Shown piece after piece: positions 1 to 64,000 of a stretch of 64,000 nucleotides of DNA. The stretch lies in contig CAXHJY010000898.1 in NCBI GenBank assembly GCA_964016885.1, positions 473,189-537,188 on the forward strand. Direction: 5' to 3'. How positions within the stretch are numbered: the stretch's first letter is position 1; the number at the start of each line of letters is the position of its first letter. The notes below the pieces were generated by a model, which saw nothing but the letters and a program-made list of their open reading frames with translations, was not told the origin of the DNA and ran no database searches. Source of the DNA: Eledone cirrhosa. Taxonomy: Eukaryota. Both the position numbers and the translations under genes were made by a program.

Positions 1-2069
1 TTAGCTTAGCTTAGGATAGCTTAGCTTAGCTTAGCTTAGGATAGCTTAGCTTAGCTTAGCTTAGGATAGCTTAGCTTAGCTTAGGATAGCTTAGCTTAGC
101 TTAGGATAGCTTAGCTTAGCTTAGCTTAGGATAGCTTAGCTTAGCTTAGCTTAGGATAGCTTAGCTTAGCTTAGCTTAGGATAGCTTAGCTTAGCTTAGG
201 ATAGCTTAGCTTAGCTTAGCTTAGGATAGCTTAGCTTAGCTTAGCTTAGGATAGCTTAGCTTAGCTTAGCTTAGGATAGATTAGCTTAGCTTAGGATAGC
301 TTAGCTTAGCTTAGCTTAGGAAAGCTTAGCTTAGCTTAGGATAGCTTAGCTTAGCTTAGCTTAGGATAGCTTAGGATAGCTTAGCTTAGGATAGCTTAGG
401 ATAGCTTAGCTTAGGATAGCTTAGGATAGCTTAGGTTAGGATAGCTTAGCTTAGGATAGCTTAGGATAGCTTAGCTTAGGATAGCTTAGGATAGCTTAGC
501 TTAGGATAGCTTAGGATAGCTTAGCTTAGGATAGCTTAGCTTAGGATAGCTTAGGAAAGCTTAGCTTAGCTTAGCTTAGGATAGCTTAGCTTAGGATAGC
601 TTAGCTTAGCTTAGCTTAGGATAGCTTAGGATAGCTTAGCTTAGGATAGCTTAGGATAGCTTAGCTTAGGATAGCTTAGCTTAGGATAGCTTAGCTTAGG
701 ATAGCTTAGGATAGCTTAGCTTAGGATAGCTTAGGATAGCTTAGCTTAGGATAGCTTAGCTTAGGATAGCTTAGGATAGCTTAGCTTAGCTTAGCTTAGG
801 ATAGCTTAGCTTAGCTTAGCTTAGGATAGCTTAGCTTAGCTTAGCTTAGCTTAGCTTAGCTTAGGATAGCTTAGGATAGCTTAGCTTAGGATAGCTTAGG
901 ATAGCTTAGCTTAGGATAGCTTAGCTTAGGATAGCTTAGCTTAGCTTAGCTTAGGATAGCTTAGCTTAGGATAGCTTAGGATAGCTTAGCTTAGGATAGC
1001 TTAGCTTAGGATAGCTTAGGATAGCTCAGCTTAGCTTAGCTTAGGATAGCTTAGCTTAGCTTAGCTTAGGATAGCTTAGCTTAGCTTAGGATAGCTTAGC
1101 TTAGCTTAGCTTAGGATAGCTTAGCTTAGCTTAGCTTAGGATAGCTTAGCTTAGCTTAGCTTAGGATAGCTTAGCTTAGGATAGCTTAGCTTAGGATAGC
1201 TTAGCTTAGGTTAGCTTAGCTTAGCTTAGCTTAGGATAGCTTAGCTTAGCTTAGCTTAGGATAGCTTAGCTTAGCTTAGCTTAGGATAGCTTAGCTTAGC
1301 TTAGGATAGCTTAGCTTAGCTTAGCTTAGGATAGCTTAGCTTAGCTTAGCTTAGGATAGCTTAGCTTAGCTTAGCTTAGGATAGCTTAGCTTAGGATAGC
1401 TTAGCTTAGGATAGCTTAGCTTAGGTTAGCTTAGCTTAGCTTAGCTTAGGATAGCTTAGGATAGCTTAGCTTAGGATAGCTTAGCTTAGCTTAGCTTAGG
1501 ATAGCTTAGCTTAGCTTAGCTTAGGATAGCTTAGCTTAGGATAGCTTAGGATTGCTTAGCTTAGCTTAGCTTAGGATAGCTTAGCTTAGCTTAGGATAGC
1601 TTAGCTTAGCTTAGCTTAGGATAGCTTAGCTTAGCTTAGGATAGCTTAGCTTAGCTTAGCTTAGGATAGCTTAGCTTAGCTTAGCTTAGGATAGCTTAGC
1701 TTAGCTTAGCTTAGGATAGCTTAGGATAGCTTAGGATAGCTTAGCTTAGCTTAGCTTAGGATAGCTTAGCTTAGCTTAGGATAGCTTAGCTTAGCTTAGC
1801 TTAGGATAGCTTAGCTTAGCTTAGGATAGCTTAGCTTAGCTTAGCTTAGGATAGCTTAGCTTAGCTTAGCTTAGGATAGCTTAGCTTAGCTTAGCTTAGG
1901 ATAGCTTAGCTTAGCTTAGCTTAGGATAGATTAGCTTAGCTTAGGATAGCTTAGCTTAGCTTAGCTTAGGAAAGCTTAGCTTAGCTTAGGATAGCTTAGT
2001 TTAGCTTAGCTTAGGAGAGCTTAGCTTAGCTTAGCTTAGGATAGCTTAGCTTAGCTTAGCTTAGGATAG

Positions 2070-4000
2070 CTTAGCTTAGCTTAGCTTAGGTAGCTTAGCT
2101 TAGCTTAGCTTAGGATAGCTTAGCTTAGCTTAGCTTAGCTTAGGATAGCTTAGCTTAGCTTAGCTTAGGATAGCTTAGGATAGCTTAGCTTAGGATAGCT
2201 TAGGATAGCTTACCTTAGGAGAGCTTAGCTTAGGATAGCTTAGCTTAGGATAGCTTAGGATAGCTTAGCTTAGGATAGCTTAGCTTAGGATAGCTTAGCT
2301 TAGGATAGCTTAGGATAGCTTAGCTTAGCTTAGCTTAGGATAGCTTAGCTTAGCTTAGCTTAGGATAGCTTAGCTTAGGTTAGCTTAGCTTAGCTTAGCT
2401 TAGCTTAGGATAGCTTAGCTTAGGATAGCTTAGGATAGCTTAGCTTAGGATAGCTTAGGATAGCTTAGCTTAGGATAGCTTAGCTTAGGATAGCTTAGGA
2501 TAGCTTAGCTTAGGATAGCTTAGGATAGCTTAGCTTAGGATAGCTTAGCTTAGGATAGCTTAGGATAGCTTAGCTTAGCTTAGCTTAGGATAGCTTAGCT
2601 TAGCTTAGCTTAGCTTAGCTTAGGATAGCTTAGCTTAGCTTAGCTTAGGATAGCTTAGGATAGCTTAGCTTAGGATAGCTTAGGATAGCTTAGCTTAGGA
2701 TAGCTTAGGATAGCTTAGGATAGCTTAGCTTAGGACAGCTTAGCTTAGCTTAGCTTAGGATAGCTTAGCTTGGCTTAGGATAGCTTAGCTTAGCTTAGCT
2801 TAGGATAGCTTAGCTTAGCTTAGCTTAGGATAGCTTAGCTTAGCTTAGCTTAGGATAGCTTAGCTTAGGATAGCTTAGCTTAGCTTAGCTTAGGATAGCT
2901 TAGCTTAGCTTAGCTTAGGACAGCTTAGCTTAGCTTAGCTTAGGATAGCTTAGCTTAGCTTAGGATAGCTTAGCTTAGCTTAGCTTAGGATAGCTTAGCT
3001 TAGCTTAGCTTAGGATAGCTTAGCTTAGGATAGCTTAGCTTAGCTTAGCTTAGGTAGCTTAGCTTAGCTTAGCTTAGGATAGCTTAGCTTAGCTTAGCTT
3101 AGCTTAGGATAGCTTAGCTTAGCTTAGCTTAGGATAGCTTAGGATAGCTTAGCTTAGGATAGCTTAGGATAGCTTACCTTAGGAGAGCTTAGCTTAGGAT
3201 AGCTTAGCTTAGGATAGCTTAGGATAGCTTAGCTTAGGATAGCTTAGCTTAGGATAGCTTAGCTTAGGATAGCTTAGGATAGCTTAGCTTAGCTTAGCTT
3301 AGGATAGCTTAGCTTAGCTTAGCTTAGGATAGCTTAGCTTAGGTTAGCTTAGCTTAGCTTAGCTTAGCTTAGGATAGCTTAGCTTAGGATAGCTTAGGAT
3401 AGCTTAGCTTAGGATAGCTTAGGATAGCTTAGCTTAGGATAGCTTAGCTTAGGATAGCTTAGGATAGCTTAGCTTAGGATAGCTTAGGATAGCTTAGCTT
3501 AGGATAGCTTAGCTTAGGATAGCTTAGGATAGCTTAGCTTAGCTTAGCTTAGGATAGCTTAGCTTAGCTTAGCTTAGCTTAGCTTAGGATAGCTTAGCTT
3601 AGCTTAGCTTAGGATAGCTTAGGATAGCTTAGCTTAGGATAGCTTAGGATAGCTTAGCTTAGGATAGCTTAGGATAGCTTAGGATAGCTTAGCTTAGGAC
3701 AGCTTAGCTTAGCTTAGCTTAGGATAGCTTAGCTTGGCTTAGGATAGCTTAGCTTAGCTTAGCTTAGGATAGCTTAGCTTAGCTTAGCTTAGGATAGCTT
3801 AGCTTAGCTTAGCTTAGGATAGCTTAGCTTAGCTTAGGATAGCTTAGCTTAGCTTAGCTTAGGATAGCTTAGCTTAGCTTAGCTTAGGACAGCTTAGCTT
3901 AGCTTAGCTTAGGATAGCTTAGCTTAGCTTAGGATAGCTTAGCTTAGCTTAGCTTAGGATAGCTTAGCTTAGCTTAGCTTAGGATAGCTTAGCTTAGGAT
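2070..4000 (+). repeat. Tandem duplication with ~964-bp unit (also in copy B at ~33930-35860)
   Basis: Deletion 2091/3055, TTACC 2210/3174, ACAGC 2735/3699 and TTGGC 2770/3734 are all at offset 964. The second ACAGC pair 2920/3889 is at offset 969. Confidence 0.9.
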
Positions 4001-7000
4001 AGCTTAGCTTAGGATAGCTTAACTTAGGTTAGCTTAGCTTAGCTTAGCTTAGAATAGCTTAGGATAGCTTAGCTTAGGATAGCTTAGCTTAGCTTAGTTT
4101 AGGATAGCTTAGCTTAGCTTAGCTTAGGATAGCTTAGCTTAGCTTAGCTTAGGATAGCTTAGCTTAGCTTAGCTTAGGATAGCTTAGCTTAGGATAGCTT
4201 AGGATAGCTTAGCTTAGCTTAGCTTAGGATAGCTTAGCTTAGCTTAGCTTAGGATAGCTTAGCTTAGCTTAGGATAGCTTAGCTTAGCTTAGCTTAGGAT
4301 AGCTTAGCTTAGCTTAGCTTAGGATAGCTTAGCTTAGCTTAGCTTAGGATAGCTTAGGATAGCTTAGGATAGCTTAGCTTAGCTTAGCTTAGGATAGCTT
4401 AGCTTAGCTTAGCTTAGGATAGCTTAGCTTAGCTTAGCTTAGGATAGCTTAGCTTAGCTTAGGATAGCTTAGCTTAGCTTAGCTTAGGATAGCTTAGCTT
4501 AGCTTAGCTTAGGATAGCTTAGCTTAGCTTAGCTTAGGATAGCTTAGCTTAGCTTAGGATAGCTTAGCTTAGCTTAGCCCAGGATAGCTTAGCTTAGGAT
4601 AGCTTAGGATAGCTTAGCTTAGGATAGCTTAGCTTAGGATAGCTTAGGATAGCTTAGCTTAGCTTAGCTTAGGAGAGCTTAGCTTAGCTTAGCTTAGGAT
4701 AGCTTAGCTTAGCTTAGGATAGCTTAGCTTAGCTTAGCTTAGGATAGCTTAGCTTAGCTTAGCTTAGGATAGCTTAGCTTAGCTTAGGATAGCTTAGCTT
4801 AGCTTAGCTTAGGATAGCTTAGCTTAGCTTAGCTTAGGATAGCTTAGCTTAGCTTAGCTTAGGATAGCTTAGCTTAGGATAGCTTAGCTTAGGATAGCTT
4901 AGCTTAGGTTAGCTTAGCTTAGCTTAGCTTAGGATAGCTTAGGATAGCTTAGCTTAGGATAGCTTAGCTTAGCTTAGCTTAGGATAGCTTAGCTTAACTT
5001 AGCTTAGGATAGCTTAGCTTAGGATAGCTTAGGATTGCTTAGCTTAGCTTAGCTTAGGATAGCTTAGCTTAGCTTAGGATAGCTTAGCTTAGCTTAGCTT
5101 AGGATAGCTTAGCTTAGCTTAGCTTAGGATAGCTTAGCTTAGCTTAGCTTAGGATAGCTTAGGATAGCTTAGGATAGCTTAGCTTAGCTTAGCTTAGGAT
5201 AGCTTAGCTTAGCTTAGGATAGCTTAGCTTAGCTTAGCTTAGGATAGCTTAGCTTAGCTTAGGATAGCTTAGCTTAGCTTAGCTTAGGATAGCTTAGCTT
5301 AGCTTAGCTTAGGATAGCTTAGCTTAGCTTAGCTTAGGATAGCTTAGCTTAGCTTAGCTTAGGATAGCTTAGCTTAGCTTAGCTTAGGATAGATTAGCTT
5401 AGCTTAGGATAGCTTAGCTTAGCTTAGCTTAGGAAAGCTTAGCTTAGCTTAGGATAGCTTAGCTTAGCTTAGCTTAGGAGAGCTTAGCTTAGCTTAGCTT
5501 AGGATAGCTTAGCTTAGCTTAGCTTAGGATAGCTTAGCTTAGCTTAGCTTAGGTAGCTTAGCTTAGCTTAGCTTAGGATAGCTTAGCTTAGCTTAGCTTA
5601 GCTTAGCTTAGGATAGCTTAGCTTAGCTTAGCTTAGGAGAGCTTAGCTTAGCTTAGCTTAGGATAGCTTAGGATAGCTTAGCTTAGGATAGCTTAGGATA
5701 GCTTACCTTAGGAGAGCTTAGCTTAGGATAGCTTAGCTTAGGATAGCTTAGGATAGCTTAGCTTAGGATAGCTTAGCTTAGGATAGCTTAGCTTAGGATA
5801 GCTTAGGATAGCTTAGCTTAGCTTAGGATAGCTTAGCTTAGCTTAGCTTAGGATAGCTTAGCTTAGGTTAGCTTAGCTTAGCTTAGCTTAGCTTAGGATA
5901 GCTTAGCTTAGGATAGCTTAGGATAGCTTAGCTTAGGATAGCTTAGGATAGCTTAGCTTAGGATAGCTTAGCTTAGGATAGCTTAGGATAGCTTAGCTTA
6001 GGATAGCTTAGGATAGCTTAGCTTAGGATAGCTTAGCTTAGGATAGCTTAGGATAGCTTAGCTTAGCTTAGCTTAGGATAGCTTAGATTAGCTTAGCTTA
6101 GGATAGCTTAGCTTAGCTTAGCTTAGGATAGCTTAGCTTAGCTTAGCTTAGGATAGCTTAGGATAGCTTAGCTTAGGATAGCTTAGGATAGCTTAGCTTA
6201 GGATAGCTTAGGATAGCTTAGGATATCTTAGCTTAGCTTAGCTTAGGATAGCTTAGCTTAGCTTAGCTTAGGATAGCTTACCTTAGCTTAGCTTAGGATA
6301 GCTTAGCTTAGCTTAGGATAGCTTAGCTTAGCTTAGCTTAGGATAGCTTAGCTTAGCTTAGCTTAGGACAGCTTAGCTTAGCTTAGCTTAGGATAGCTTA
6401 GCTTAGCTTAGGATAGCTTAGCTTAGCTTAGCTTAGGATAGCTTAGCTTAGCTTAGCTTAGGATAGCTTAGCTTAGGATAGCTTAGCTTAGGATAGCTTA
6501 GCTTAGGTTAGCTTAGCTTAGCTTAGCTTAGGATAGCTTAGGATAGCTTAGCTTAGGATAGCTTAGCTTAGCTTAGCTTAGGATAGCTTAGCTTAGCTTA
6601 GCTTAGGATAGCTTAGCTTAGCTTAGCTTAGGATAGCTTAGCTTAGCTTAGCTTAGGATAGCTTAGCTTAGGATAGCTTAGGATAGCTTAGCTTAGCTTA
6701 GCTTAGGATAGCTTAGCTTAGCTTAGCTTAGGATAGCTTAGCTTAGCTTAGGATAGCTTAGCTTGGCTTAGCTTAGGATAGCTTAGCTTAGCTTAGCTTA
6801 GGATAGCTTAGCTTAGCTTAGCTTAGCTTAGCTTAGGATAGCTTAGGATAGCTTAGGATAGCTTAGCTTAGCTTAGCTTAGGATAGCTTAGCTTAGCTTA
6901 GCTTAGGTTAGCTTAGCTTAGCTTAGCTTAGGATAGCTTAGCTTAGCTTAGCTTAGGATAGCTTAGCTTAGCTTAGCTTAGGATAGCTTAGCTTAGCTTA

Positions 7001-10000
7001 GCTTAGGATAGCTTAGCTTAGCTTAGCTTAGGATAGCTTAGCTTAGCTTAGCTTAGGATAGCTTAGCTTAGCTTAGCTTAGGATAGCTTAGCTTAGCTTT
7101 GCTTAGGATAGATTAGCTTAGCTTAGGATAGCTTAGCTTAGCTTAGCTTAGGAAAGCTTAGCTTAGCTTAGGATAGCTTAGCTTAGCTTAGCTTAGGAGA
7201 GCTTAGCTTAGCTTAGCTTAGGATAGCTTAGCTTAGCTTAGCTTAGGATAGCTTAGGATAGCTTAGCTTAGGATAGCTTAGGATAGCTTAGCTTAGGATA
7301 GCTTAGCTTAGGATAGCTTAGCTTAGGATAGCTTAGGATAGCTTAGCTTAGCTTAGCTTAGGATAGCTTAGGATAGCTTAGCTTAGGATAGCTTAGGATA
7401 GCTTAGCTTAGGATAGATTAGGATAGCTTAGCTTAGGATAGCTTAGGATAGCTTAGCTTAGGATAGGTTAGCTTAGGATAGCTTAGCTTAGCTTAGGATA
7501 GCTTAGCTTGGGATAGCTTAGGATAGCTTAGGATAGCTTAGCTTAGGATAGCTTAGCTTAGGATAGCTTAGGATAGCTTAGCTTAGCTTAGCTTAGGATA
7601 GCTTAGCTTAGCTTAGCTTAGGATAGCTTAGCTTAGCTTAGGATAGCTTAGCTTAGCTTAGCTTAGGATAGCTTAGCTTAGCTTAGCTTAGGATAGCTTA
7701 GCTTAGCTTAGCTTAGGATAGCTTAGCTTAGCTTAGCTTAGGATAGCTTAGCTTAGCTTAGCTTAGGATAGCTTAGCTTAGCTTAGCTTAGAATAGCTTA
7801 GCTTAGGATAGCTTAGCTTAGGATAGCTTAGCTTAGGATAGCTTAGGATAGCTTAGCTTAGGATAGCTTAGGATAGCTTAGCTTAGGATAGCTTAGCTTA
7901 GCTTAGGATAGCTTAGCTTAGCTTAGAATAGCTTAGCTTAGCTTAGCTTAGGATAGCTTAGCTTAGGATAGCTTAGGAAAGCTTAGCTTAGCTTAGCTTA
8001 GGATAGCTTAGCTTAGCTTAGCTTAGGATAGCTTAGCTTAGCTTAGGATAGTTTAGCTTAGCTTAGCTTAGGATAGCTTAGCTTAGCTTAGCTTAGGATA
8101 GCTTAGCTTAGCTTAGCTTAGGATAGCTTAGCTTAGCTTAGCTTAGGATAGCTTAGCTTAGCTTAGCTTAGGATAGCTTAGCTTAGCTTAGGATAGCTTA
8201 GCTTAGCTTAGCTTAGGATAGCTTAGCTTAGCTTAGCTTAGGATAGCTTAGCTTAGGATAGCTTAGCTTAGCTTAGCTTAGGATAGCTTAGCTTAGCTTA
8301 GCTTAGGATAGCTTAGCTTAGCTTAGCTTAGGATAGCTTAGCTTAGCTTAGCTTAGGATAGCTTAGCTTAGCTTAGCTTAGGATAGCTTAGCTTAGCTTA
8401 GCTTAGGATAGCTTAGCTTAGCTTAGCTTAGGATAGCTTAGCTTAGCTTAGCTTAGGATAGCTTAGCTTAGCTTAGCTTAGGATAGCTTAGCTTAGCTTG
8501 GCTTAGGATAGCTTAGCTTAGCTTGGCTTAGGATAGCTTAGCTTAGCTTAGCTTAGGATAGCTTAGCTTAGCTTAGCTTAGGATAGCTTAGCTTAGCTTA
8601 GCTTAGGATAGCTTAGCTTAGCTTAGGATAGCTTAGCTTAGTTTAGGATAGCTTAGCTTAGCTTAGCTTAGGATAGCTTAGGATAGCTTAGCTTAGGATA
8701 GCTTAGGATAGCTTAGCTTAGGATAGCTTAGGATAGCTTAGGTTAGGATAGCTTAGCTTAGGATAGCTTAGGATAGCTTAGCTTAGGATAGCTTAGGATA
8801 GCTTAGCTTAGGATAGCTTAGGATAGCTTAGCTTAGGATAGCTTAGCTTAGGATAGCTTAGGAAAGCTTAGCTTAGCTTAGCTTAGGATAGCTTAGCTTA
8901 GCTTAGCTTAGGATAGCTTAGCTTAGCTTAGCTTAGGATAGCTTAGGATAGCTTAGCTTAGGATAGCTTAGGATAGCTTAGCTTAGGATAGCTTAGCTTA
9001 GGATAGCTTAGCTTAGGATAGCTTAGCTTAGGATAGCTTAGGATAGCTTAGCTTAGGATAGCTTAGGATAGCTTAGCTTAGGATAGCTTAGCTTAGGATA
9101 GCTTAGGATAGCTTAGCTTAGCTTAGCTTAGGATAGCTTAGCTTAGCTTAGCTTAGTATAGCTTAGCTTAGCTTAGCTTAGCTTAGGATAGCTTAGCTTA
9201 GCTTAGCTTAGGATAGCTTAGGATAGCTTAGCTTAGGATAGCTTAGGATAGCTTAGCTTAGGATAGCTTAGGATAGCTTAGCTTAGGATAGCTTAGGATA
9301 GCTTAGCTTAGGATAGCTTAGCTTAGGATAGCTTAGCTTAGCTTAGCTTAGGATAGCTTAGCTTAGGATAGCTTAGGATAGCTTAGCTTAGGATAGCTTA
9401 GCTTAGGATAGCTTAGGATAGCTTAGCTTAGCTTAGCTTAGGATAGCTTAGCTTAGCTTAGCTTAGGATAGCTTAGCTTAGCTTAGGATAGCTTAGCTTA
9501 GCTTAGCTTAGGATAGCTTAGCTTAGCTTAGTTTAGGATAGCTTAGCTTAGCTTAGCTTAGGATAGCTTAGCTTAGCTTAGCTTAGGATAGCTTAGCTTA
9601 GCTTAGGATAGCTTAGCTTAGGATAGCTTAGGATAGCTTAGCTTAGGATAGCTTAGCTTAGGATAGCTTAGCTTAGGTTAGCTTAGCTTAGCTTAGCTTA
9701 GGATAGCTTAGGATAGCTTAGCTTAGGATAGCTTAGCTTAGCTTAGCTTAGGATAGCTTAGCTTAGCTTAGCTTAGGATAGCTTAGCTTAGCTTAGGATA
9801 GCTTAGCTTAGGATAGCTTAGGATAGCTTAGCTTAGCTTAGCTTAGGATAGCTTAGCTTAGCTTAGGATAGCTTAGCTTAGCTTAGGATAGCTTAGCTTA
9901 GCTTAGCTTAGGATAGCTTAGCTTAGCTTAGGATAGCTTAGCTTAGGTTAGCTTAGGATAGCTTAGGATAGCTTAGCTTAGCTTAGCTTAGCTTAGGATA

Positions 10001-51300: not shown

Positions 51301-54300
51301 AGGATAGCTTAGGATAGCTTAGCTTAGGATAGCTTAGGATAGCTTAGCTTAGGATAGCTTAGGATAGCTTAGCTTAGGATAGCTTAGCTTAGGATAGCTT
51401 AGCTTAGCTTAGCTTAGGATAGCTTAGCTTAGGATAGCTTAGGATAGCTTAGCTTAGGATAGCTTAGCTTAGGATAGCTTAGGATAGCTTAGCTTAGCTT
51501 AGCTTAGGATAGCTTAGCTTAGCTTAGCTTAGGATAGCTTAGCTTAGCTTAGGATAGCTTAGCTTAGCTTAGCTTAGGATAGCTTAGCTTAGCTTAGCTT
51601 AGGATAGCTTAGCTTAGCTTAGCTTAGGATAGCTTAGCTTAGCTTAGGATAGCTCAGCTTAGCTTAGCTTAGGATAGCTTAGCTTAGGTTAGCTTAGGAT
51701 AGCTTAGGATGGCTTAGGATAGCTTAGCTTAGCTTAGCTTAGGATAGCTTAGCTTAGCTTAGCTTAGGATAGCTTAGCTTAGCTTAGGATAGCTTAGCTT
51801 AGCTTAGGATAGCTTAGCTTAGCTTAGGATAGCTTAGCTTAGCTTAGCTTAGGATAGCTTAGCTTTGCTTAGGATAGCTTAGCTTAGCTTAGCTTAGGAT
51901 AGCTTAGCTTAGCTTAGCTTAGGATAGCTTAGCTTAGGATAGCTTAGCTTAGCTTTGCTTAGGATAGCTTAGCTTAGCTTAGCTTAGGATAGCTTAGCTT
52001 AGCTTAGCTTAGGATAGCTTAGCTTAGCTTAGGATAGCTTAGCTTAGCTTAGCTTAGGATAGCTTAGCTTAGCTTAGCTTAGGATAGCTTAGCTTAGCTT
52101 AGCTTAGGATAGCTTAGCTTAGCTTAGCTTAGGATAGCTTAGGATAGCTTAGCTTAGGATAGCTTAGGATAGCTTAGGATAGCTTAGCTTAGCTTAGCTT
52201 AGGATAGCTTAGCTTAGCTTAGCTTAGGATAGCTTAGCTTAGCTTAGCTTAGGATAGCTTAGCTTAGCTTAGGATAGCTTAGCTTAGCTTAGCTTAGGAT
52301 AGCTTAGCTTAGCTTAGCTTAGGATAGCTTAGCTTAGCTTAGGATAGCTTAGCTTAGGATAGCTTAGCTTAGCTTAGCTTAGGATAGCTTAGCTTAGCTT
52401 AGCTTAGGATAGCTTAGCTTAGCTTAGCTTAGGATAGCTTAGCTTAGCTTAGCTTAGGATAGCTTAGCTTAGCTTAGCTTAGGATAGCTTAGCTTAGCTT
52501 AGCTTAGGATAGCTTAGCTTAGCTTAGCTTAGGATAGATTAGCTTAGCTTAGGATAGCTTAGCTTAGCTTAGCTTAGGAAAGCTTAGCTTAGCTTAGGAT
52601 AGCTTAGCTTAGCTTAGCTTAGGAGAGCTTAGCTTAGCTTAGGATAGCTTAGCTTAGCTTAGCTTAGGATAGCTTAGCTTAGCTTAGCTTAGGTAGCTTA
52701 GCTTAGCTTAGCTTAGGATAGCTTAGCTTAGCTTAGCTTAGGATAGCTTAGGATAGCTTAGCTTAGGATAGCTTAGGATAGCTTACCTTAGGAGAGCTTA
52801 GCTTAGGATAGCTTAGCTTAGGATAGCTTAGGATAGCTTAGCTTAGGATAGCTTAGCTTAGGATAGCTTAGCTTAGGATAGCTTAGGATAGCTTAGCTTA
52901 GCTTAGCTTAGGATAGCTTAGCTTAGCTTAGCTTAGGATAGCTTAGCTTAGGTTAGCTTAGCTTAGCTTAGCTTAGGATAGCTTAGGATAGCTTAGCTTA
53001 GGATAGCTTAGGATAGCTTAGCTTAGGATAGCTTAGGATAGCTTAGCTTAGGATAGCTTAGTTTAGGATAGCTTAGGATTGCTTAGCTTAGGATAGCTTA
53101 GGATAGCTTAGCTTAGGATAGCTTAGCTTAGGATAGCTTAGCTTAGGATCGCTTAGGATAGCTTAGCTTAGCTTAGCTTAGGATAGCTTAGCTTAGCTTA
53201 GCTTAGGATAGCTTAGCTTAGCTTAGCTTAGGATAGCTTAGCTTAGCTTAGCTTAGGATAGCTTAGGATAGCTTAGCTTAGGATAGCTTAGGATAGCTTA
53301 GCTTAGGATAGCTTAGGATAGCTTAGCTTAGGATAGCTTAGCTTAGGATAGCTTAGCTTAGGATAGCTTAGGATAGCTTAGCTTAGGATAGCTTAGGATA
53401 GCTTAGCTTAGGATAGCTTAGCTTAGGATAGCTTAGCTTAGGATAGCTTAGGATAGCTTAGCTTAGCTTAGCTTAGGATAGCTTAGCTTAGCTTAGCTTA
53501 GGATAGCTTAGCTTAGCTTAGCTTAGGATAGCTTAGCTTAGCTTAGCCTAGGATAGCTTAGGATAGCTTAGCTTAGGATAGCTTAGGATAGCTTAGCTTA
53601 GGTTAGCTTAGGATAGCTTAGCTTAGGATAGATTAGCTTAGGATAGCTTAGCTTAGGATAGCTTAGGATAGCTTAGCTTAGGATAGCTTAGGATCGCTTA
53701 GCTTAGAATAGCTTAGCTTAGGATAGCTTAGGAAAGCTTAGCTTAGCTTAGCTTAGGATAGCTTAGCTTAGCTTAGCTTAGGATAGCTTAGCTTAGCTTA
53801 GCTTAGGATAGCTTAGGATAGCTTAGCTTAGGATAGCTTAGGATAGCTTAGCTTTGGATAGCTTAGCTTAGGAGAGCTTAGCTTAGGATAGCTTAGGATA
53901 GCTTAGCTTAGGATAGCTTAGGATAGCTTAGCTTAGGATAGCTTAGCTTAGGATAGCTTAGGATAGCTTAGCTTAGCTTAGCTTAGGATAGCTTAGCTTA
54001 GCTTAGCTTAGGATAGCTTAGCTTAGCTTAGCTTAGCTTAGGATAGCTTAGCTTAGCTTAGCTTAGGATAGCTTAGGATAGCTTAGCTTAGGATAGCTTA
54101 GGATAGCTTAGCTTAGGATAGCTTAGGATAGCTTAGCTTAGGATAGCTTAGGATAGCTTAGCTTAGGATAGCTTAGCTTAGGATAGCTTAGCTTAGCTTA
54201 GCTTAGGATAGCTTAGCTTAGGATAGCTTAGGATAGCTTAGCTTAGGATAGCTTAGCTTAGGATAGCTTAGGATAGCTTAGCTTAGCTTAGCTTAGGATA

Positions 54301-57300
54301 GCTTAGCTTAGCTTAGCTTAGGATAGCTTAGCTTAGCTTAGGATAGCTTAGCTTAGCTTAGCTTAGGATAGCTTAGCTTAGCTTAGCTTAGGATAGCTTA
54401 GCTTAGCTTAGCTTAGGATAGCTTAGCTTAGCTTAGGATAGCTCAGCTTAGCTTAGCTTAGGATAGCTTAGCTTAGGTTAGCTTAGGATAGCTTAGGATG
54501 GCTTAGGATAGCTTAGCTTAGCTTAGCTTAGGATAGCTTAGCTTAGCTTAGGATAGCTTAGCTTAGCTTAGCTTAGGATAGCTTAGCTTAGCTTAGGATA
54601 GCTTAGCTTAGCTTAGCTTAGGATAGCTTAGCTTTGCTTAGGATAGCTTAGCTTAGCTTAGCTTAGGATAGCTTAGCTTAGCTTAGCTTAGGATAGCTTA
54701 GCTTAGGATAGCTTAGCTTAGCTTTGCTTAGGATAGCTTAGCTTAGCTTAGCTTAGGATAGCTTAGCTTAGCTTAGCTTAGGATAGCTTAGCTTAGCTTA
54801 GCTTAGGATAGCTTAGCTTAGCTTAGCTTAGGATAGCTTAGCTTAGGATAGCTTAGCTTAGCTTAGGATAGCTTAGCTTAGCTTAGCTTAGGATAGCTTA
54901 GCTTTGCTTAGGATAGCTTAGCTTAGCTTAGCTTAGCTTAGGATAGCTTAGCTTAGCTTAGCTTAGGATAGATTAGCTTAGCTTAGGATAGCTTAGCTTA
55001 GCTTAGCTTAGGAAAGCTTAGCTTAGCTTAGGATAGCTTAGCTTAGCTTAGCTTAGGAGAGCTTAGCTTAGCTTAGGATAGCTTAGCTTAGCTTAGCTTA
55101 GGATAGCTTAGCTTAGCTTAGGTAGCTTAGCTTAGCTTAGCTTAGGATAGCTTAGCTTAGCTTAGCTTAGCTTAGGATAGCTTAGCTTAGCTTAGCTTAG
55201 GATAGCTTAGCTTAGCTTAGCTTAGGATAGCTTAGGATAGCTTAGCTTAGGATAGCTTAGGATAGCTTACCTTAGGAGAGCTTAGCTTAGGATAGCTTAG
55301 CTTAGGATAGCTTAGGATAGCTTAGCTTAGGATAGCTTAGGATAGCTTAGCTTAGGATAGCTTAGGATAGCTTAGCTTAGGATAGCTTAGCTTAGGATAG
55401 CTTAGCTTAGGATAGCTTAGGATAGCTTAGCTTAGGATAGCTTAGGATAGCTTAGCTTAGGATAGCTTAGCTTAGGATAGCTTAGCTTAGGATAGCTTAG
55501 GATAGCTTAGCTTAGCTTAGCTTAGGATAGCTTAGCTTAGCTTAGCTTAGGATAGCTTAGCTTAGCTTAGCTTAGGATAGCTTAGCTTAGCTTAGCCTAG
55601 GATAGCTTAGGATAGCTTAGCTTAGGATAGCTTAGGATAGCTTAGCTTAGGTTAGCTTAGGATAGCTTAGCTTAGGATAGATTAGCTTAGGATAGCTTAG
55701 CTTAGGATAGCTTAGGATAGCTTAGCTTAGGATAGCTTAGGATCGCTTAGCTTAGAATAGCTTAGCTTAGGATAGCTTAGGAAAGCTTAGCTTAGCTTAG
55801 CTTAGGATAGCTTAGCTTAGCTTAGCTTAGGATAGCTTAGCTTAGCTTAGCTTAGGATAGCTTAGGATAGCTTAGCTTAGGATAGCTTAGGATAGCTTAG
55901 CTTTGGATAGCTTAGCTTAGGAGAGCTTAGCTTAGGATAGCTTAGGATAGCTTAGCTTAGGATAGCTTAGGATAGCTTAGCTTAGGATAGCTTAGCTTAG
56001 GATAGCTTAGGATAGCTTAGCTTAGCTTAGCTTAGGATAGCTTAGCTTAGCTTAGCTTAGGATAGCTTAGCTTAGCTTAGCTTAGCTTAGGATAGCTTAG
56101 CTTAGCTTAGCTTAGGATAGCTTAGGATAGCTTAGCTTAGGATAGCTTAGGATAGCTTAGCTTAGGATAGCTTAGGATAGCTTAGCTTAGGATAGCTTAG
56201 GATAGCTTAGCTTAGGATAGCTTAGCTTAGGATAGCTTAGCTTAGCTTAGCTTAGGATAGCTTAGCTTAGGATAGCTTAGGATAGCTTAGCTTAGGATAG
56301 CTTAGCTTAGGATAGCTTAGGATAGCTTAGCTTAGCTTAGCTTAGGATAGCTTAGCTTAGCTTAGCTTAGGATAGCTTAGCTTAGCTTAGGATAGCTTAG
56401 CTTAGCTTAGCTTAGGATAGCTTAGCTTAGCTTAGCTTAGGATAGCTTAGCTTAGCTTAGCTTAGGATAGCTTAGCTTAGCTTAGGATAGCTCAGCTTAG
56501 CTTAGCTTAGGATAGCTTAGCTTAGGTTAGCTTAGGATAGCTTAGGATGGCTTAGGATAGCTTAGCTTAGCTTAGCTTAGGATAGCTTAGCTTAGCTTAG
56601 CTTAGGATAGCTTAGCTTAGCTTAGCTTAGGATAGCTTAGCTTAGCTTAGGATAGCTTAGCTTAGCTTAGCTTAGGATAGCTTAGCTTAGCTTAGGATAG
56701 CTTAGCTTAGCTTAGCTTAGGATAGCTTAGCTTTGCTTAGGATAGCTTAGCTTAGCTTAGCTTAGGATAGCTTAGCTTAGCTTAGCTTAGGATAGCTTAG
56801 CTTAGGATAGCTTAGCTTAGCTTTGCTTAGGATAGCTTAGCTTAGCTTAGCTTAGGATAGCTTAGCTTAGCTTAGCTTAGGATAGCTTAGCTTAGCTTAG
56901 CTTAGGATAGCTTAGCTTAGCTTAGCTTAGGATAGCTTAGCTTAGGATAGCTTAGCTTAGCTTAGGATAGCTTAGCTTAGCTTAGCTTAGGATAGCTTAG
57001 CTTTGCTTAGGATAGCTTAGCTTAGCTTAGCTTAGGATAGCTTAGCTTAGCTTAGCTTAGGATAGCTTAGCTTAGCTTAGCTTAGGATAGATTAGCTTAG
57101 CTTAGGATAGCTTAGCTTAGCTTAGCTTAGGAAAGCTTAGCTTAGCTTAGGATAGCTTAGCTTAGCTTAGCTTAGGAGAGCTTAGCTTAGCTTAGGATAG
57201 CTTAGCTTAGCTTAGCTTAGGATAGCTTAGCTTAGCTTAGGTAGCTTAGCTTAGCTTAGCTTAGGATAGCTTAGCTTAGCTTAGCTTAGCTTAGGATAGC

Positions 57301-57400
57301 TTAGCTTAGCTTAGCTTAGGATAGCTTAGCTTAGCTTAGCTTAGGATAGCTTAGGATAGCTTAGCTTAGGATAGCTTAGGATAGCTTACCTTAGGAGAGC
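48400..57400 (+). repeat. Four-copy expansion of a ~2.1-kb CTAGG/ATGGC-marked unit that is single-copy in A (~24200-26300)
   Basis: CTAGG at 48665, 50759, 53548 and 55597 versus only 24493 in A. ATGGC at 49590, 51709, 54498 and 56547 versus only 25438 in A. Confidence 0.9.
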
Positions 57401-60400
57401 TTAGCTTAGGATAGCTTAGCTTAGGATAGCTTAGGATAGCTTAGCTTAGGATAGCTTAGCTTAGGATAGCTTAGCTTAGGATAGCTTAGGATAGCTTAGC
57501 ATAGCTTAGCTTAGGATAGCTTAGCTTAGCTTAGCTTAGGATAGCTTAGCTTAGGTTAGCTTAGCTTAGCTTAGCTTAGGATAGCTTAGCTTAGGATAGC
57601 TTAGGATAGCTTAGCTTAGGATAGCTTAGCTTAGGATAGCTTAGCTTAGCTTTGCTTAGGATAGCTTAGCTTAGCTTAGCTTAGGATAGCTTAGCTTAGC
57701 TTAGCTTAGGATAGCTTAGCTTAGCTTAGCTTAGGATAGCTTAGCTTAGCTTAGCTTAGGATAGCTTAGCTTAGCTTAGCTTAGGATAGCTTAGCTTAGC
57801 TTAGCTTAGGATCGCTTAGCTTAGCTTAGGATAGCTTAGCTTAGCTTAGGATAGCTTAGCTTAGCTTAGCTTAGGATAGCTTAGCTTAGCTTAGGATAGC
57901 TTAGGATAGCTTAGCTTAGGAGAGCTTAGCTTAGCTTAGCTTAGGATAGCTTAGCTTAGCTTAGCTTAGGATAGCTTAGCTTAACTTAGCTTAGGATAGC
58001 TTAGCTTAGCTTAACTTAGGATAGCTTAGCTTAGCTTAGCTTAGGATAGCTTAGCTTAGCTTAGCTTAGGATAGCTTAGCTTAGCTTAGCTTAGGATAGC
58101 TTAGGATAGCTTAGCTTAGGATAGCTTAGGATAGCTTACCTTAGGAGAGCTTAGCTTAGGATAGCTTAGCTTAGGATAGCTTAGGATAGCTTAGCTTAGG
58201 ATAGCTTAGCTTAGGATAGCTTAGCTTAGGATAGCTTAGGATAGCTTAGCTTAGCTTAGCTTAGGATAGCTTAGCTTAGCTTAGCTTAGGATAGCTTAGC
58301 TTAGCTTAGCTTAGGATAGCTTAGCTTAGCTTAGCTTAGGATAGCTTAGGATAGCTTAGCTTAGGATAGCTTAGGATAGCTTAGCTTAGGATAGCTTAGG
58401 ATAGCTTAGCTTAGGATAGCTTAGCTTAGGATAGCTTAGCTTAGGATAGCTTAGGATAGCTTAGCTTAGGATAGCTTAGGATAGCTTAGCTTAGGATAGC
58501 TTAGCTTAGGATAGCTTAGGATAGCTTAGCTTAACTTAGCTTAGGATAGCTTAGCTTAGCTTAGCTTAGGATAGCTTAGCTTAGCTTAGCTTAGGATAGC
58601 TTAGCTTAGCTTAGCTTAGGATAGCTTAGGATAGCTTAGCTTAGGATAGCTTAGGATAGCTTAGCTTAGGATAGCTTAGGATAGTTTAGCTTAGGATAGC
58701 TTAGCTTAGGATAGCTTAGGATAGCTTAGCTTAGCTTAGCTTAGGATAGCTTAGGATAGCTTAGCTTAGGATAGCTTAGGATAGCTTAGCTTAGGATAGA
58801 TTAGGATAGCTTAGCTTAGGATAGCTTAGGATAGCTTAGCTTAGGATAGCTTAGCTTAGGATAGCTTAGCTTAGCTTAGCTTAGGATAGCTTAGCTTGGG
58901 ATAGCTTAGGATAGCTTAGCTTAGGATAGCTTAGCTTAGGATAGCTTAGGATAGCTTAGCTTAGCTTAGCTTAGGATAGCTTAGCTTAGCTTAGCTTAGG
59001 ATAGCTTAGCTTAGCTTAGGATAGCTTAGCTTAGCTTAGCTTAGGATAGCTTAGCTTAGCTTAGCTTAGGATTGCTTAGCTTAGCTTAGCTTAGGATAGC
59101 TTAGCTTAGCTTAGCTTAGGATAGCTTAGCTTAGCTTAGCTTAGGATAGCTTAGCTTAGCTTAGCTTAGAATAGCTTAGCTTAGGATAGCTTAGCTTAGG
59201 ATAGCTTAGCTTAGGATAGCTTAGCTTAGGATAGCTTAGGATAGCTTAGCTTAGGATAGCTTAGGATAGCTTAGCTTAGGATAGCTTAGCTTAGCTTAGC
59301 TTAGGATAGCTTAGCTTAGCTTAGGATAGCTTAGCTTAGCTTAGCTTAGGATAGCTTAGCTTAGGATAGCTTAGGAAAGCTTAGCTTAGCTTAGCTTAGG
59401 ATAGCTTAGCTTAGCTTAGCTTAGGATAGCTTAGCTTAGCTTAGGATAGCTTAGCTTAGCTTAGCTTAGGATAGCTTAGCTTAGCTTAGTTTAGGATAGC
59501 TTAGCTTAGCTTAGCTTAGGATAGCTTAGCTTGGCTTAGCTTAGGATAGCTTAGCTTAGCTTAGCTTAGGATAGCTTAGCTTAGGATAGCTTAGCTTAGC
59601 TTAGCTTAGGATAGCTTAGCTTAGCTTAGCTTAGGATAGCTTAGCTTAGGATAGCTTAGCTTAGCTTAGCTTAGGATAGCTTAGCATAGCTTAGCTTAGG
59701 ATAGCTTAGCTTAGCTTAGCTTAGGATAGCTTAGCTTAGCTTAGCTTAGGATAGCTTAGCTTAGCTTAGCTTAGGATAGCTTAGCTTAGCTTAGCTTAGG
59801 ATAGCTTAGCTTAGCTTAGCTTAGGATAGCTTAGCATAGCTTAGCTTAGGATAGCTTAGCTTAGCTTAGCTTAGGATAGCTTAGCTTAGCTTAGGATAGC
59901 TTAGCTTAGCTTGGCTTAGGATAGCTTAGCTTAGCTTGGCTTAGGATAGCTTAGCTTAGCTTAGCTTAGGATAGCTTAGCTTAGGATAGCTTAGGATAGC
60001 TTAGCTTAGCTTAGCTTAGGATAGCTTAGCTTAGTTTAGGATAGCTTAGCTTAGCTTAGCTTAGGATAGCTTAGGATAGCTTAGCTTAGGATAGCTTAGG
60101 ATAGCTTAGCTTAGGATAGCTTAGGATAGCTTAGCTTAGGATAGCTTAGGATAGCTTAGGTTAGGATAGTTTAGCTTAGGATAGCTTAGGATAGCTTAGC
60201 TTAGGATAGCTTAGGATAGCTTAGCTTAGGATAGCTTAGGATAGCTTAGCTTAGGATAGCTTAGCTTAGGATAGCTTAGGAAAGCTTAGCTTAGCTTAGC
60301 TTAGGATAGCTTAGCTTAGCTTAGCTTAGGATAGCTTAGCTTAGCTTAGCTTAGGATAGCTTAGGATAGCTTAGCTTAGGATAGCTTAGGATAGCTTAGC

Positions 60401-62955
60401 TTAGGATAGCTTAGCTTAGGATAGCTTAGCTTAGGATAGCTTAGGATAGCTTAGCTTAGGATAGCTTAGGATAGCTTAGCTTAGGATAGCTTAGCTTAGG
60501 ATAGCTTAGGATAGCTTAGCTTAGCTTAGCTTAGGATAGCTTAGCTTAGCTTAGGATAGCTTAGCTTAGCTTAGCTTAGCTTAGGATAGCTTAGCTTAGC
60601 TTAGGATAGCTTAGGATAGCTTAGCTTAGGATAGCTTAGGATAGCTTAGCTTAGGATAGCTTAGGATAGCTTAGCTTAGGATAGCTTAGCTTAGGATAGC
60701 TTAGCTTAGCTTAGCTTAGGATAGCTTAGCTTAGGATAGCTTAGGATATCTTAGGTTAGGATAGCTTAGCTTAGGATAGCTTAGGATAGATTAGCTTAGC
60801 TTAGCTTAGGATAGCTTAGCTTAGCTTAGCTTAGCTTAGCTTAGCTTAGGATAGCTTAGCTTAGCTTAGCTTAGGATAGCTTAGCTTAGCTTAGCTTAGG
60901 ATAGCTTAGCTTAGCTTAGGATAGCTTAGCTTAGCTTAGCTTAGGATAGCTTAGCTTAGCTTAGCTTAGGATAGCTTAGCTTAGGATAGCTTAGCTTAGG
61001 ATAGCTTAGCTTAGGTTAGCTTAGCTTAGCTTAGCTTAGGATAGCTTAGGATAGCTTAGCTTAGGATAACTTAGCTTAGCTTAGCTTAGGATAGCTTAGC
61101 TTAGCTTAGCTTAGGATAGCTTAGCTTAGCTTAGCTTAGGATAGCTTAGCTTAGGATAGCTTAGGATTGCTTAGCTTAGCTTAGCTTAGGATAGCTTAGC
61201 TTAGCTTAGCTTAGGATAGCTTAGCTTAGCTTAGGATAGCTTAGCTTAGCTTAGCTTAGGATAGCTTAGCTTAGCTTAGCTTAGGATAGCTTAGCTTAGC
61301 TTAGCTTAGGATAGCTTAGGATAGCTTAGGATAGCTTAGCTTAGCTTAGCTTAGGATAGCTTAGCTTAGCATAGGATAGCTTAGCTTAGCTTAGCTTAGG
61401 ATAGCTTAGCTTAGCTTAGGATAGCTTAGCTTAGCTTAGCTTAGGATAGCTTAGCTTAGCTTAGCTTAGGATAGCTTAGCTTAGCTTAGCTTAGGATAGC
61501 TTAGCTTAGCTTAGCTTAGGATAGCTTAGCTTAGCTTAGCTTAGGATAGATTAGCTTAGCTTAGGATAGCTTAGCTTAGCTTAGCTTAGGAAAGCTTAGC
61601 TTAGCTTAGGATAGCTTAGCTTAGCTTAGCTTAGGAGAGCTTAGCTTAGCTTAGCTTAGGATAGCTTAGCTTAGCTTAGCTTAGGATAGCTTAGCTTAGC
61701 TTAGGTAGCTTAGCTTAGCTTAGCTTAGGATAGCTTAGCTTAGCTTAGCTTAGCTTAGGATAGCTTAGCTTAGCTTAGCTTAGGAGAGCTTAGCTTAGCT
61801 TAGCTTAGGATAGCTTAGGATAGCTTAGCTTAGGATAGCTTAGGATAGCTTACCTTAGGAGAGCTTAGCTTAGGATAGCTTAGCTTAGGATAGCTTAGGA
61901 TAGCTTAGCTTAGGATAGCTTAGCTTAGGATAGCTTAGCTTAGGATAGCTTAGGATAGCTTAGCTTAGCTTAGCTTAGGATAGCTTAGCTTAGCTTAGCT
62001 TAGGATAGCTTAGCTTAGGTTAGCTTAGCTTAGCTTAGCTTAGCTTAGGATAGCTTAGCTTAGGATAGCTTAGGATAGCTTAGGATAGCTTAGCTTAGGA
62101 TAGCTTAGCTTAGGATAGCTTAGGATAGCTTAGCTTAGGATAGCTTAGGATAGCTTAGCTTAGGATAGCTTAGCTTAGGATAGCTTAGGATAGCTTAGCT
62201 TAGCTTAGCTTAGGATAGCTTAGCTTAGCTTAGCTTAGGATAGCTTAGCTTAGCTTAGCTTAGGATTGCTTAGCTTAGCTTAGCTTAGGATAGCTTAGGA
62301 TAGCTTAGCTTAGGATAGCTTAGCTTAGGATAGCTTAGGATAGCTTAGGATAGCTTAGCTTAGCTTAGCTTAGGATAGCTTAGCTTAGCTTAGCTTAGGA
62401 TAGCTTAGCTTAGCTTAGCTTAGGATAGCTTAGCTTAGCTTAGGATAGCTTAGCTTAGCTTAGCTTAGGATAGCTTAGCTTAGCTTAGCTTAGGACAGCT
62501 TAGCTTAGCTTAGCTTAGGATAGCTTAGCTTAGCTTAGGATAGCTTAGCTTAGCTTAGCTTAGGATAGCTTAGCTTAGGATAGCTTAGCTTAGGATAGCT
62601 TAGCTTGGGTTAGCTTAGCTTAGCTTAGCTTAGGATAGCTTAGGATAGCTTAGCTTAGGATAGCTTAGCTTAGCTTAGCTTAGGATAGCTTAGCTTAGCT
62701 TAGCTTAGGATAGCTTAGCTTAGCTTAGCTTAGGATAGCTTAGCTTAGCTTAGCTTAGGATAGCTTAGCTTAGGATAGCTTAGGATAGCTTAGCTTAGCT
62801 TAGCTTAGGATAGCTTAGCTTAGCTTAGCTTAGGATAGCTTAGCTTAGCTTAGGATAGCTTAGCTTAGCTTAGCTTAGGATAGCTTAGCTTAGCTTAGCT
62901 TAGGATAGCTTAGCTTAGCTTAGCTTAGGATAGCTTAGGATAGCTTAGGATAGCT

Positions 62956-64000
62956 TAGCTTAGCTTAGCTTAGGATAGCTTAGCTTAGCTTAGCTTAGGA
63001 TAGCTTAGCTTAGCTTAGCTTAGGATAGCTTAGCTTAGCTTAGGATAGCTTAGCTTAGCTTAGGATAGCTTAGCTTAGCTTAGCTTAGGATAGCTTAGCT
63101 TAGCTTAGCTTAGGATAGCTTAGCTTAGCTTAGCTTAGGATAGCTTAGCTTAGCTTAGGATAGCTTAGCTTAGCTTAGCTTAGGATAGCTTAGCTTAGCT
63201 TAGCTTAGGATAGCTTAGCTTAGCTTAGCTTAGGATAGATTAGCTTAGCTTAGGATAGCTTAGCTTAGCTTAGCTTAGGAAAGCTTAGCTTAGCTTAGGA
63301 TAGCTTAGCTTAGCTTAGCTTAGGATAGCTTAGGATAGCTTAGCTTAGGATAGCTTAGGATAGCTTAGCTTAGGATAGCTTAGGATAGCTTAGGTTAGGA
63401 TAGCTTAGCTTAGGATAGCTTAGGATAGCTTAGCTTAGGATAGCTTAGGATAGCTTAGCTTAGGATAGCTTAGGATAGCTTAGCTTAGGATAGCTTAGGA
63501 AAGCTTAGCTTAGCTTAGCTTAGGATAGCTTAGCTTAGCTTAGCTTAGGATAGCTTAGCTTAGCTTAGCTTAGGATAGCTTAGGATAGCTTAGCTTAGGA
63601 TAGCTTAGGATAGCTTAGCTTAGGATAGCTTAGCTTAGGATAGCTTAGCTTAGGATAGCTTAGGATAGCTTAGCTTAGGATAGCTTAGGATAGCTTAGCT
63701 TAGGATAGCTTAGCTTAGGATAGCTTAGGATAGCTTAGCTTAGCTTAGCTTAGGATAGCTTAGCTTAGCTTAGCTTAGGATAGCTTAGCTTAGCTTAGCT
63801 TAGCTTAGCTTAGCTTAGGATAGCTTAGGATAGCTTAGCTTAGGATAGCTTAGGATAGCTTAGCTTAGGATAGCTTAGCTTAGGATAGCTTAGCTTAGCT
63901 TAGCTTAGGATAGCTTAGCTTAGGATAGCTTAGGATAGCTTAGCTTAGGATAGCTTAGCTTAGGATAGCTTAGGATAGCTCAGCTTAGCTTAGCTTAGGA
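62956..64000 (+). repeat. Start of a third super-repeat copy (C), truncated by the window end
   Basis: ATAGA 63235, AAAGC 63280 and TCAGC 63980 match 32141/32186/32886 (offset 31094) and 276/321/1026. Confidence 0.8.

What the first reader, a model, noticed from the sequence alone, without database searches (positions are those of the whole stretch)
1..64000. A 5-bp satellite concealing a ~31-32 kb higher-order repeat
Seen: rare variant pentamers recur in identical order at ~31.86 kb (first part) and ~31.1 kb (last part), giving two full copies and the start of a third (TCAGC in the same context at 1026, 32886, 63980). Each unit spans over 6000 monomers. Established: higher-order repeats are typical of centromeric satellites such as primate alpha satellite, and pentamer-derived human HSat3 has kb-scale periods. 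Inference: this is a recently amplified, multi-level HOR much longer than those familiar periods, compatible with an actively homogenising centromeric or subtelomeric array.
Basis: partly seen in the sequence, partly recalled or inferred. Interest (0 to 1): 0.8.

Follow-up and report, generated by a model that had tools for sequence, protein, structure and literature searches.

The report
Young 31-kb duplication in pentamer satellite
The window is one unbroken five-letter satellite in which a ~31-kb stretch recurs at about 99.9% identity but already differs by four kilobase-sized rearrangements, so it is likely an ordinary young duplication of the kind satellites keep making, not a fixed centromere-type higher-order repeat.

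Summary
The long-range repeat is real. The window is a single-strand (TTAGC)n-TTAGG-ATAGC satellite with off-diagonals at 31.86, 24.9 and 31.1 kb; the longest exact repeat is 3,188 bp against at most 420 bp in 30 Markov nulls. It is not two full copies of a fixed unit. About 24.9 of unit A's 31.9 kb has a collinear partner in B. B lacks 6,948 bp, gains ~2.1 and ~4.9 kb by duplication and loses ~0.75 kb, so the near-equal lengths are a coincidence. Aligned parts differ by 19 substitution events and 24 pentamer-register indels in 24,665 bp. About 5 substitutions per kb-scale event resembles the ~4:1 measured in Arabidopsis centromeres. The third copy is 1,041 bp. Beneath lie 25-bp and ~2.4-kb periods. 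Best reading: a young, eroding tandem macro-duplication in a nested satellite like human HSat3, where duplications up to 5 Mb are published. Copy number, centromere role and organism are untested; a haplotype mis-join is disfavoured, not excluded. I found the motif in neither the papers searched nor earlier scan notes.

The parts
1..64000 (+). Continuous (TTAGC)n-TTAGG-ATAGC satellite. n is mostly 3, 1 or 0, which gives a 25-bp base period. 402 of 12,804 tokens are variants. Non-coding.
   Evidence: longest stop-to-stop frame 29 codons; 0 Rfam matches
1..31865 (+). Unit A of the macro-duplication; the start is set by the window edge, so the phase is arbitrary
31866..62959 (+). Unit B, a rearranged copy of A; six blocks of A account for 98.6% of its tokens
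62960..64000 (+). Start of a third copy; identical to 31174-32906 from 62268 to the window end (1,733 bp)
1..6541 (+). Block matching 31866-38401 (offset 31,860); 3 substitution events and 6 indels
6542..13457 (+). A-only segment. It is absent from B (net 6,948 bp, 32-bp junction overlap at B 38370-38401); inferred to be a deletion in B.
13458..23477 (+). Block matching 38370-48388 (offset ~24.9 kb); 10 substitution events and 9 indels
48389..55292 (+). B-only expansion. Extra copies of A 23.0-26.4 kb arise from a ~2.1-kb and a ~4.9-kb tandem duplication and a ~0.75-kb deletion (inferred order). The same new junction stands at 50455 and 55293.
24189..32906 (+). Block matching 55293-64000 (offset ~31.1 kb); holds the longest exact match, 26403-29590 (3,188 bp)
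12921..17253 (+). Hub block X (~4.3 kb). Other copies: 1-1135 (part), 28647-32970, 38388-42155 (cut by the deletion) and 59746-64000. The 15.7-kb pair is as young as A/B (1.5 differences/kb).
17614..22613 (+). Two-copy ~2.5-kb tandem duplication, also present in B (42516-47524), so older than the A/B split
2061..3993 (+). Two-copy ~0.96-kb tandem duplication, also present in B (33916-35853)
10018..12850 (+). Two-copy ~1.38-kb tandem duplication inside the A-only segment

Best explanation
The window is a non-coding pentamer satellite holding a ~31-32-kb stretch repeated head to tail at about 99.9% identity, likely a young tandem macro-duplication made by ordinary homology-driven satellite turnover and already eroding. 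Shown: nested periods of 5 and 25 bp; older 2.2-2.5-kb blocks 9-16 differences/kb apart; local 1-2.5-kb tandem duplications shared by both units; the A/B pair at about 1.7 differences/kb; and four kb-scale differences that all keep the 5-bp register. Inferred: the order of events (25-bp unit, ~2.4-kb nested repeat, local duplications, the ~32-kb duplication, then in B a 6.9-kb deletion, a 2.1-kb duplication, a 4.9-kb duplication that copied the first junction, and a 0.75-kb deletion). Also inferred: the machinery, unequal sister exchange or break-induced replication for gains and single-strand annealing for losses, with slippage for the 5-30-bp indels. The period would be a passing by-product of array growth, not a maintained unit; heterochromatin is the expected setting, untested.
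For: Block map and offsets. 19 substitution events and 24 indels of 5-30 bp, all multiples of 5, in 24,665 aligned bp. A six-block model of A explains 6,136 of B's 6,221 tokens with no gap above 15 tokens. All four B copies of block A 24.3-25.7 kb share a variant (ATCGC) and a one-pentamer insertion that A lacks, so B's internal duplications postdate the A/B split. The same new junction, with a 48-bp overlap, stands at 50455 and 55293. Both A flanks of the 6.9-kb gap sit in contexts seen elsewhere in the array, while B's join is new, which points to a deletion in B. About 5 substitutions per kb-scale event (19:4) is close to Arabidopsis centromeres: 208:56 in mutation-accumulation lines and 1,113:275 in HPG1, nearly all register-preserving; the authors invoke BIR and SSA (10.1101/2025.06.02.657473, passages). 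Two markers (TCAGC present, GTAGC absent) group the X copies at 1, 31866 and 62960 against those at 16139 and 41041, as a ~31-kb tandem period predicts.
Against: Only about 2.03 copies are visible, so 'few copies, eroding' cannot be told from one divergent pair inside a long HOR array. The 19:4 ratio rests on four events. All four large events fall in B and none in A (chance about 1 in 8 if even; my arithmetic), which could also reflect an assembly or haplotype effect. Junction overlaps (32, 48 and 8 bp; one not measurable) are only modestly above random in-register pairs (median 8, 12% reach 30 bp), so they do not single out a repair pathway. 0.08% divergence is also what two haplotypes could show (inference). 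No reads were laid on the sequence.
Confidence: 0.62

Rival explanations
1. A genuine, many-copy ~31-32-kb higher-order repeat of over 6,000 pentamers, with A and B as structural variants of one maintained unit, perhaps at a centromere.
For: A third copy begins, identical to B's start over 1,733 bp. It carries the markers of the copies that lead into the first block. A and B lengths are within 761 bp. Alpha arrays also carry HOR structural variants (figure legend seen).
Against: 22% of A has no partner in B and about 6.2 kb of B is extra copies, so the length match is the sum of a loss and gains. Blocks recur at many unrelated offsets (0.96, 2.0, 2.5, 2.8, 4.8, 9.2, 15.7, 21.9 kb). The 15.7-kb pair is as young as A/B. 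Nothing in the window bears on centromere function.
Confidence: 0.2
2. A and B are the two haplotypes of one ~31-kb region, joined in tandem by the assembler through the repeated 4.3-kb X block.
For: 0.08% substitutions plus a few kb-scale differences is plausible between haplotypes of a satellite (inference). The join would fall in X, which occurs five times at 1.5-3.4 differences/kb. The visible third copy lies wholly within X.
Against: There is no N gap, so no gap-marked scaffold join lies inside the window. On this model the first and last X of one haplotype would be paralogues, yet they share two markers that the middle X lacks. X at 31866 equals X at 62960 (0 differences in 1,020 bp) but differs from X at 1 by 2 indels. 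That places a join in the last ~550 bp of X, too short an exact overlap for a long-read assembler unless the second haplotype differs there (inference).
Confidence: 0.12
3. The array is telomeric, or telomere-derived and still made by telomerase, with a template that yields the mixed TTAGG/TTAGC words.
For: 27% of tokens are TTAGG, the canonical insect telomere motif (PMC12036569, passages). The array is on one strand with GC skew about +0.27.
Against: TTAGG never runs more than twice in a row. The order of n values is copied exactly over kilobases, which needs DNA-to-DNA copying. No retrotransposon insertion occurs in 64 kb, whereas most insect telomeres are so interrupted. The motif letters were absent from the main text of two insect telomere papers, and a general telomere review gave one unrelated hit. 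A distant origin from a TTAGG repeat is not excluded.
Confidence: 0.06

Closest known systems
Human HSat2/HSat3 nested tandem repeats, especially DYZ1 on Yq12 (10.1101/2021.07.12.452052 and 10.1101/2022.12.01.518724; passages read)
   Same: Pentamer-derived satellite with a kb-scale nested period (DYZ1 ~3.6 kb; here ~2.4 kb). The period varies locally. Iterative tandem duplications of large blocks, up to 5 Mb in Yq12, are attributed to unequal exchange.
   Different: Unrelated sequence (CATTC there). Far less decayed from its pentamers here: 3.1% variant tokens, about 0.6% of bases. Information is carried mainly by the order of run lengths. Organism not known.
Arabidopsis CEN178 arrays, measured mutation spectrum (10.1101/2025.06.02.657473; passages)
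   Same: Register-preserving kb-scale tandem duplications and deletions at about one per four point changes; block similarity arises without a fixed HOR.
   Different: 178-bp monomer at CENH3-marked centromeres. Largest wild-type indel 13.7 kb (59.5 and 105 kb deletions only in rtel1), smaller than the ~32-kb duplication here.
Primate alpha-satellite HORs and macro-repeats (review PMC8122249, passages)
   Same: Large blocks more alike than the parts inside them; macro-repeats and zones of recent duplication are described.
   Different: Alpha HORs have a discrete number of ~70%-identical monomers in fixed order, repeated many times. Here monomers are near-identical 5-mers, the two units differ in 20-22% of their length and about two copies are seen.
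Maize CentC/knob180 local and long-range HOR patterns (PMC13011684; passages); ape pCht subterminal caps (PMC12058530; passages)
   Same: Long-range periodicity in non-centromeric heterochromatin: ~1 Mb in knobs, 335-536 kb in pCht caps. Maize HOR patterns are unrelated to the active centromere.
   Different: Longer monomers. The pCht period is marked by a ~30-kb non-satellite spacer; this window has none.

Membership tests
Higher-order repeat, strict (alpha-satellite type) | A discrete, fixed number of monomers in fixed order per unit | tested here: not met
   6,374 vs 6,221 tokens; four kb-scale differences in block content
Higher-order repeat, strict (alpha-satellite type) | Units more alike to each other than blocks within a unit | tested here: met
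   A/B blocks 1.4-1.7 differences/kb vs 9-16/kb among old internal blocks. Exception: the 15.7-kb internal pair is equally young.
Higher-order repeat, strict (alpha-satellite type) | Many tandem copies of the unit | tested here: inconclusive
   About 2.03 copies in 64 kb; no flank or genome held
Nested tandem repeat / macro-duplicated simple satellite (HSat2/3-like architecture) | Derived from a short simple repeat | tested here: met
   97% of tokens are three pentamers; periods 15, 25, 50 by TRF on bases 1-20,000
Nested tandem repeat / macro-duplicated simple satellite (HSat2/3-like architecture) | Longer kb-scale unit without fixed monomer count, varying locally | tested here: met
   2.5 kb is the top interval for 100-mers; variant-pair excess at 2.4 kb, z 7.3 in the window and 4.9 in A alone; spacing irregular
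Human HSat2/HSat3 themselves | CATTC-derived sequence | tested here: not met
   The word is not among the 32 token types or the 40 commonest 5-mers
Functional centromeric satellite | CENP-A/CENH3 occupancy and primary-constriction location | not testable with these tools
   No chromatin or position data
Functional centromeric satellite | Excess fold-back structure (a proposed, not defining, trait) | tested here: not met
   z -0.66 to +3.3 in 6 of 6 folds: none better than shuffles
Insect-type (TTAGG)n telomere | Long runs of the telomeric motif | tested here: not met
   Longest TTAGG run is 2
Insect-type (TTAGG)n telomere | Chromosome-end position and a matching telomerase RNA template | not testable with these tools
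   No genome held

The most novel reading that the evidence does not exclude
An undescribed TTAGG-containing pentamer satellite, shared by several species, whose array is tiled by many copies of a ~31-kb, 6,000-monomer super-unit. The unit's identity is written almost wholly in the order of run lengths: a barcode that records every slip and duplication and would let satellite mutation be read at single-event resolution, possibly at a centromere or chromosome end.
Probability: 0.2. Interest if true: 0.55.

Novelty: new member of a known kind. Interest (0 to 1): 0.25.

Why it matters
As it stands this is a clean example of layered satellite growth outside the model species: a 5-bp repeat yields a readable history of 25-bp, 2.4-kb, 1-5-kb and 32-kb duplications, with a ratio of point to kb-scale change like that measured in Arabidopsis centromeres. 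That supports the view that long-range periods arise and decay as a by-product of turnover whatever the monomer length. It shows no new mechanism or function. It would matter more if the flanks held many fixed copies, or if the array carried CENH3 or capped chromosomes.

Tried and rejected
Chance: rejected by Markov nulls and label shuffles. Coding or RNA gene: longest frame 29 codons among 87 of at least 20; 0 Rfam matches. Special hairpin stability: 0 of 6 folds beat shuffles. A as two diverged 15.7-kb halves: rejected, only the 4.3-kb X block matches at that offset and it is as young as A/B. Plain global alignment of A to B (539 tokens matched): uninformative, because the low-complexity grammar aligns anywhere. 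Prokaryotic, viral or metagenomic source or relatives: 0 exact matches in four scans. Own genome: none held. Sequencing runs (one 5-kb stretch, 103 words, 24 rows): three runs of one sample of organism J hold 0.70-0.76 and may be the source; K 0.42, L 0.27, M 0.23 and A 0.20 are flagged as holders; 13 more rows hold 0.12-0.19. None was laid, so small shares are no evidence; 202 of the stretch's 966 distinct 31-mers (21%) use only the three common pentamers, which alone could give shares up to about 0.2. Literature: 10 searches gave no paper on this motif. Two wheat hits were chance matches inside a FISH oligo; PMC2289018 showed no occurrence in the held text; PMC12400953 had nothing on simple-satellite periods; 10.64898/2026.05.10.723265 was seen as abstract and outline only. 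Earlier scan notes: nothing on this DNA, and the six listed notes were unrelated.
Full report
What the sequence is. The whole window parses into 12,804 pentamer tokens on one strand: 5,787 TTAGC, 3,437 TTAGG, 3,178 ATAGC and 402 variants of 29 types. TTAGG is followed by ATAGC 3,123 times, so the grammar is TTAGG-ATAGC-(TTAGC)n. In the 3,492 units the commonest n are 3 (1,051), 1 (930), 0 (736) and 2 (223). A unit with n=3, or an n=1 plus n=0 pair, spans 25 bp, and self-identity peaks at lag 25 (0.913); TRF on the first 20 kb gives periods 15, 25 and 50. GC is 0.40 and skews are flat throughout. There is no N, no frame over 29 codons, no Rfam match and no excess fold-back in six folds. That this is a eukaryotic satellite is inferred from its size and form; exact scans of viral, prokaryotic and metagenome collections found nothing and no genome is held.

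The long-range repeat is real. Shared 150- and 300-mers peak at offsets 31,099, 31,860 and ~24,900. The longest exact match is 3,188 bp (26,403-29,590 with 57,502-60,689), while 30 Markov simulations of orders 3, 8 and 12 gave 175-420 bp. Pairs of the same rare variant pile up at 31.0, 24.9 and 31.8 kb (z 12.8, 11.5, 10.5 against 300 shuffles). TCAGC stands at 1026, 32886 and 63980 with the same 40 upstream bases, though it occurs 12 times in all.

It is a mosaic, not a fixed unit. Take A as 1-31,865 and B as 31,866-62,959. A 1-6,541 matches at +31,860, A 13,458-23,477 at +24.9 kb, A 22,985-25,236 at +29.05 kb and A 24,189 onward at +31.1 kb. A 6,542-13,457 has no partner in B: a net 6,948-bp gap with a 32-bp overlap at the join. 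Both A flanks sit in contexts common elsewhere in the array while B's join is new, so I infer a deletion in B. B 48.4-57.5 kb holds four copies of A 24.3-25.7 kb. All four share a variant and a one-pentamer insertion that A lacks, and one new junction with a 48-bp overlap stands twice, at 50,455 and 55,293. The simplest history is a 2.1-kb tandem duplication, then a 4.9-kb duplication that copied its junction, and a 0.75-kb deletion in the first copy. A model of B as six blocks of A matches 6,136 of 6,221 tokens, with no gap over 15 tokens. The similar lengths of A and B are thus a 6.9-kb loss offset by about 6.2 kb of gains.

Age and layers. In 24,665 aligned bases A and B differ by 19 substitution events (0.08%; one is a one-base loss in an A-run and may be a consensus error) and 24 indels of 5, 10, 15, 25 or 30 bp. 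Shared by both units, and so older, are tandem pairs of 0.96 kb and 2.5 kb. Older still are many 1.3-4-kb blocks at 7-16 differences/kb, most often 2.2-2.5 kb long; 2.5 kb is the top recurrence interval of 100-mers and variant pairs are in excess at 2.4 kb within A alone (z 4.9). Left-to-right factorisation leaves only 4,398 bases not covered by an earlier match of at least 100 bp. A 4.3-kb hub block X occurs five times. Its copies 15.7 kb apart differ by 1.5/kb, as young as A/B, but their surroundings do not match, so A is not two 15.7-kb halves.

The third copy and the haplotype question. Bases 62,268-64,000 equal 31,174-32,906 exactly. This lies inside X, and the window ends about 90 bases before the point (32,994 in B) where X copies part into different followers. 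Two markers still group the X copies at 1, 31,866 and 62,960 against those at 16,139 and 41,041, which a ~31-kb tandem period gives for free. If A and B were haplotypes joined inside X, the first and last X of one haplotype would have to be sister paralogues anyway. Since X at 31,866 matches the last X and not the first at an indel near 32,370, the join would be confined to about 550 bp, unless the second haplotype differs there. This disfavours a mis-join without excluding it; no reads were laid.

How it most likely works. Shown: nested blocks, register-preserving differences, relative ages. Inferred: homology-driven copying inside the array (unequal sister exchange or break-induced replication for gains, single-strand annealing for losses, slippage for 5-30-bp changes). 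In Arabidopsis centromeres 208 point changes came with 56 large indels in mutation-accumulation lines, and 1,113 with 275 in HPG1 accessions, all but one keeping the period (10.1101/2025.06.02.657473, passages). The 19:4 here is of the same order, on small numbers. Junction overlaps of 32, 48 and 8 bp are only modestly above random in-register pairs (median 8; 12% reach 30), so the pathway is not pinned down. All four large events lie in B, which is unexplained but not unlikely.

Comparison with what is known. Altemose et al. keep 'higher-order repeat' for units of a discrete number of like monomers, call the kb-scale units of pentamer-derived HSat2/3 nested tandem repeats, note that their period varies locally, and describe macro-repeats in alpha arrays (10.1101/2021.07.12.452052, passages). 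In T2T-Y, DYZ1 is a ~3.6-kb nested repeat of a pentamer, and iterative tandem duplications up to 5 Mb span its blocks (10.1101/2022.12.01.518724, passages). Maize knobs show patterns recurring about 1 Mb apart, and maize HORs do not track the active centromere (PMC13011684, passages); ape pCht caps have a 335-536-kb period (PMC12058530, passages). This array therefore works like HSat3 and is not a member of it or of strict HORs. TTAGG is the canonical insect telomere motif (PMC12036569, passages), but it never runs more than twice here. An ancient telomeric origin is possible; a working telomere is unlikely.

Novelty. Ten paper searches found no report of this motif, and the scan's notes hold nothing on this DNA. 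The library lacks most subscription journals. The list of periods in the Altemose supplement (Fig. S10) and the table of non-canonical insect telomere motifs in PMC12036569 (a figure) could not be seen and may bear on this; I read no supplements.

Verdict. Observation partly confirmed; interpretation partly supported. It is a new sequence example of a known architecture. Best explanation 0.62, many-copy HOR 0.20, haplotype join 0.12, telomerase product 0.06. Interest 0.25.

Noticed in passing
window 1-64000: TTAGG and ATAGC almost always come as a pair (3,123 times). Against two TTAGC words the pair differs by two adjacent bases, so one ancient two-base change may underlie the whole grammar.
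   Followed up: no
window 1-64000: Run length n=2 is scarce (223 units) between n=1 (930) and n=3 (1,051), so the 25-bp phase is favoured although single-pentamer indels are the commonest small change (13 of 24).
   Followed up: partly
window 42911: The only one-base loss among A/B differences falls in a short A-run (AAAGC to AAGC), a typical long-read consensus error; a 4-base token TAGC, by contrast, is old and present 20 times.
   Followed up: no
window 1-64000: Only 9 CG dinucleotides in 64 kb, 8 of them in one variant word, so the array offers almost no CpG for methylation.
   Followed up: no
window 26001-31000: Runs under 13 organism labels share 12-76% of the sampled words; K (0.42), L (0.27) and M (0.23) exceed the 21% that common words alone could give, a hint that relatives share variant contexts.
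   Followed up: partly
window 38370-55340: All four kb-scale differences between the units map to unit B; none to A.
   Followed up: partly
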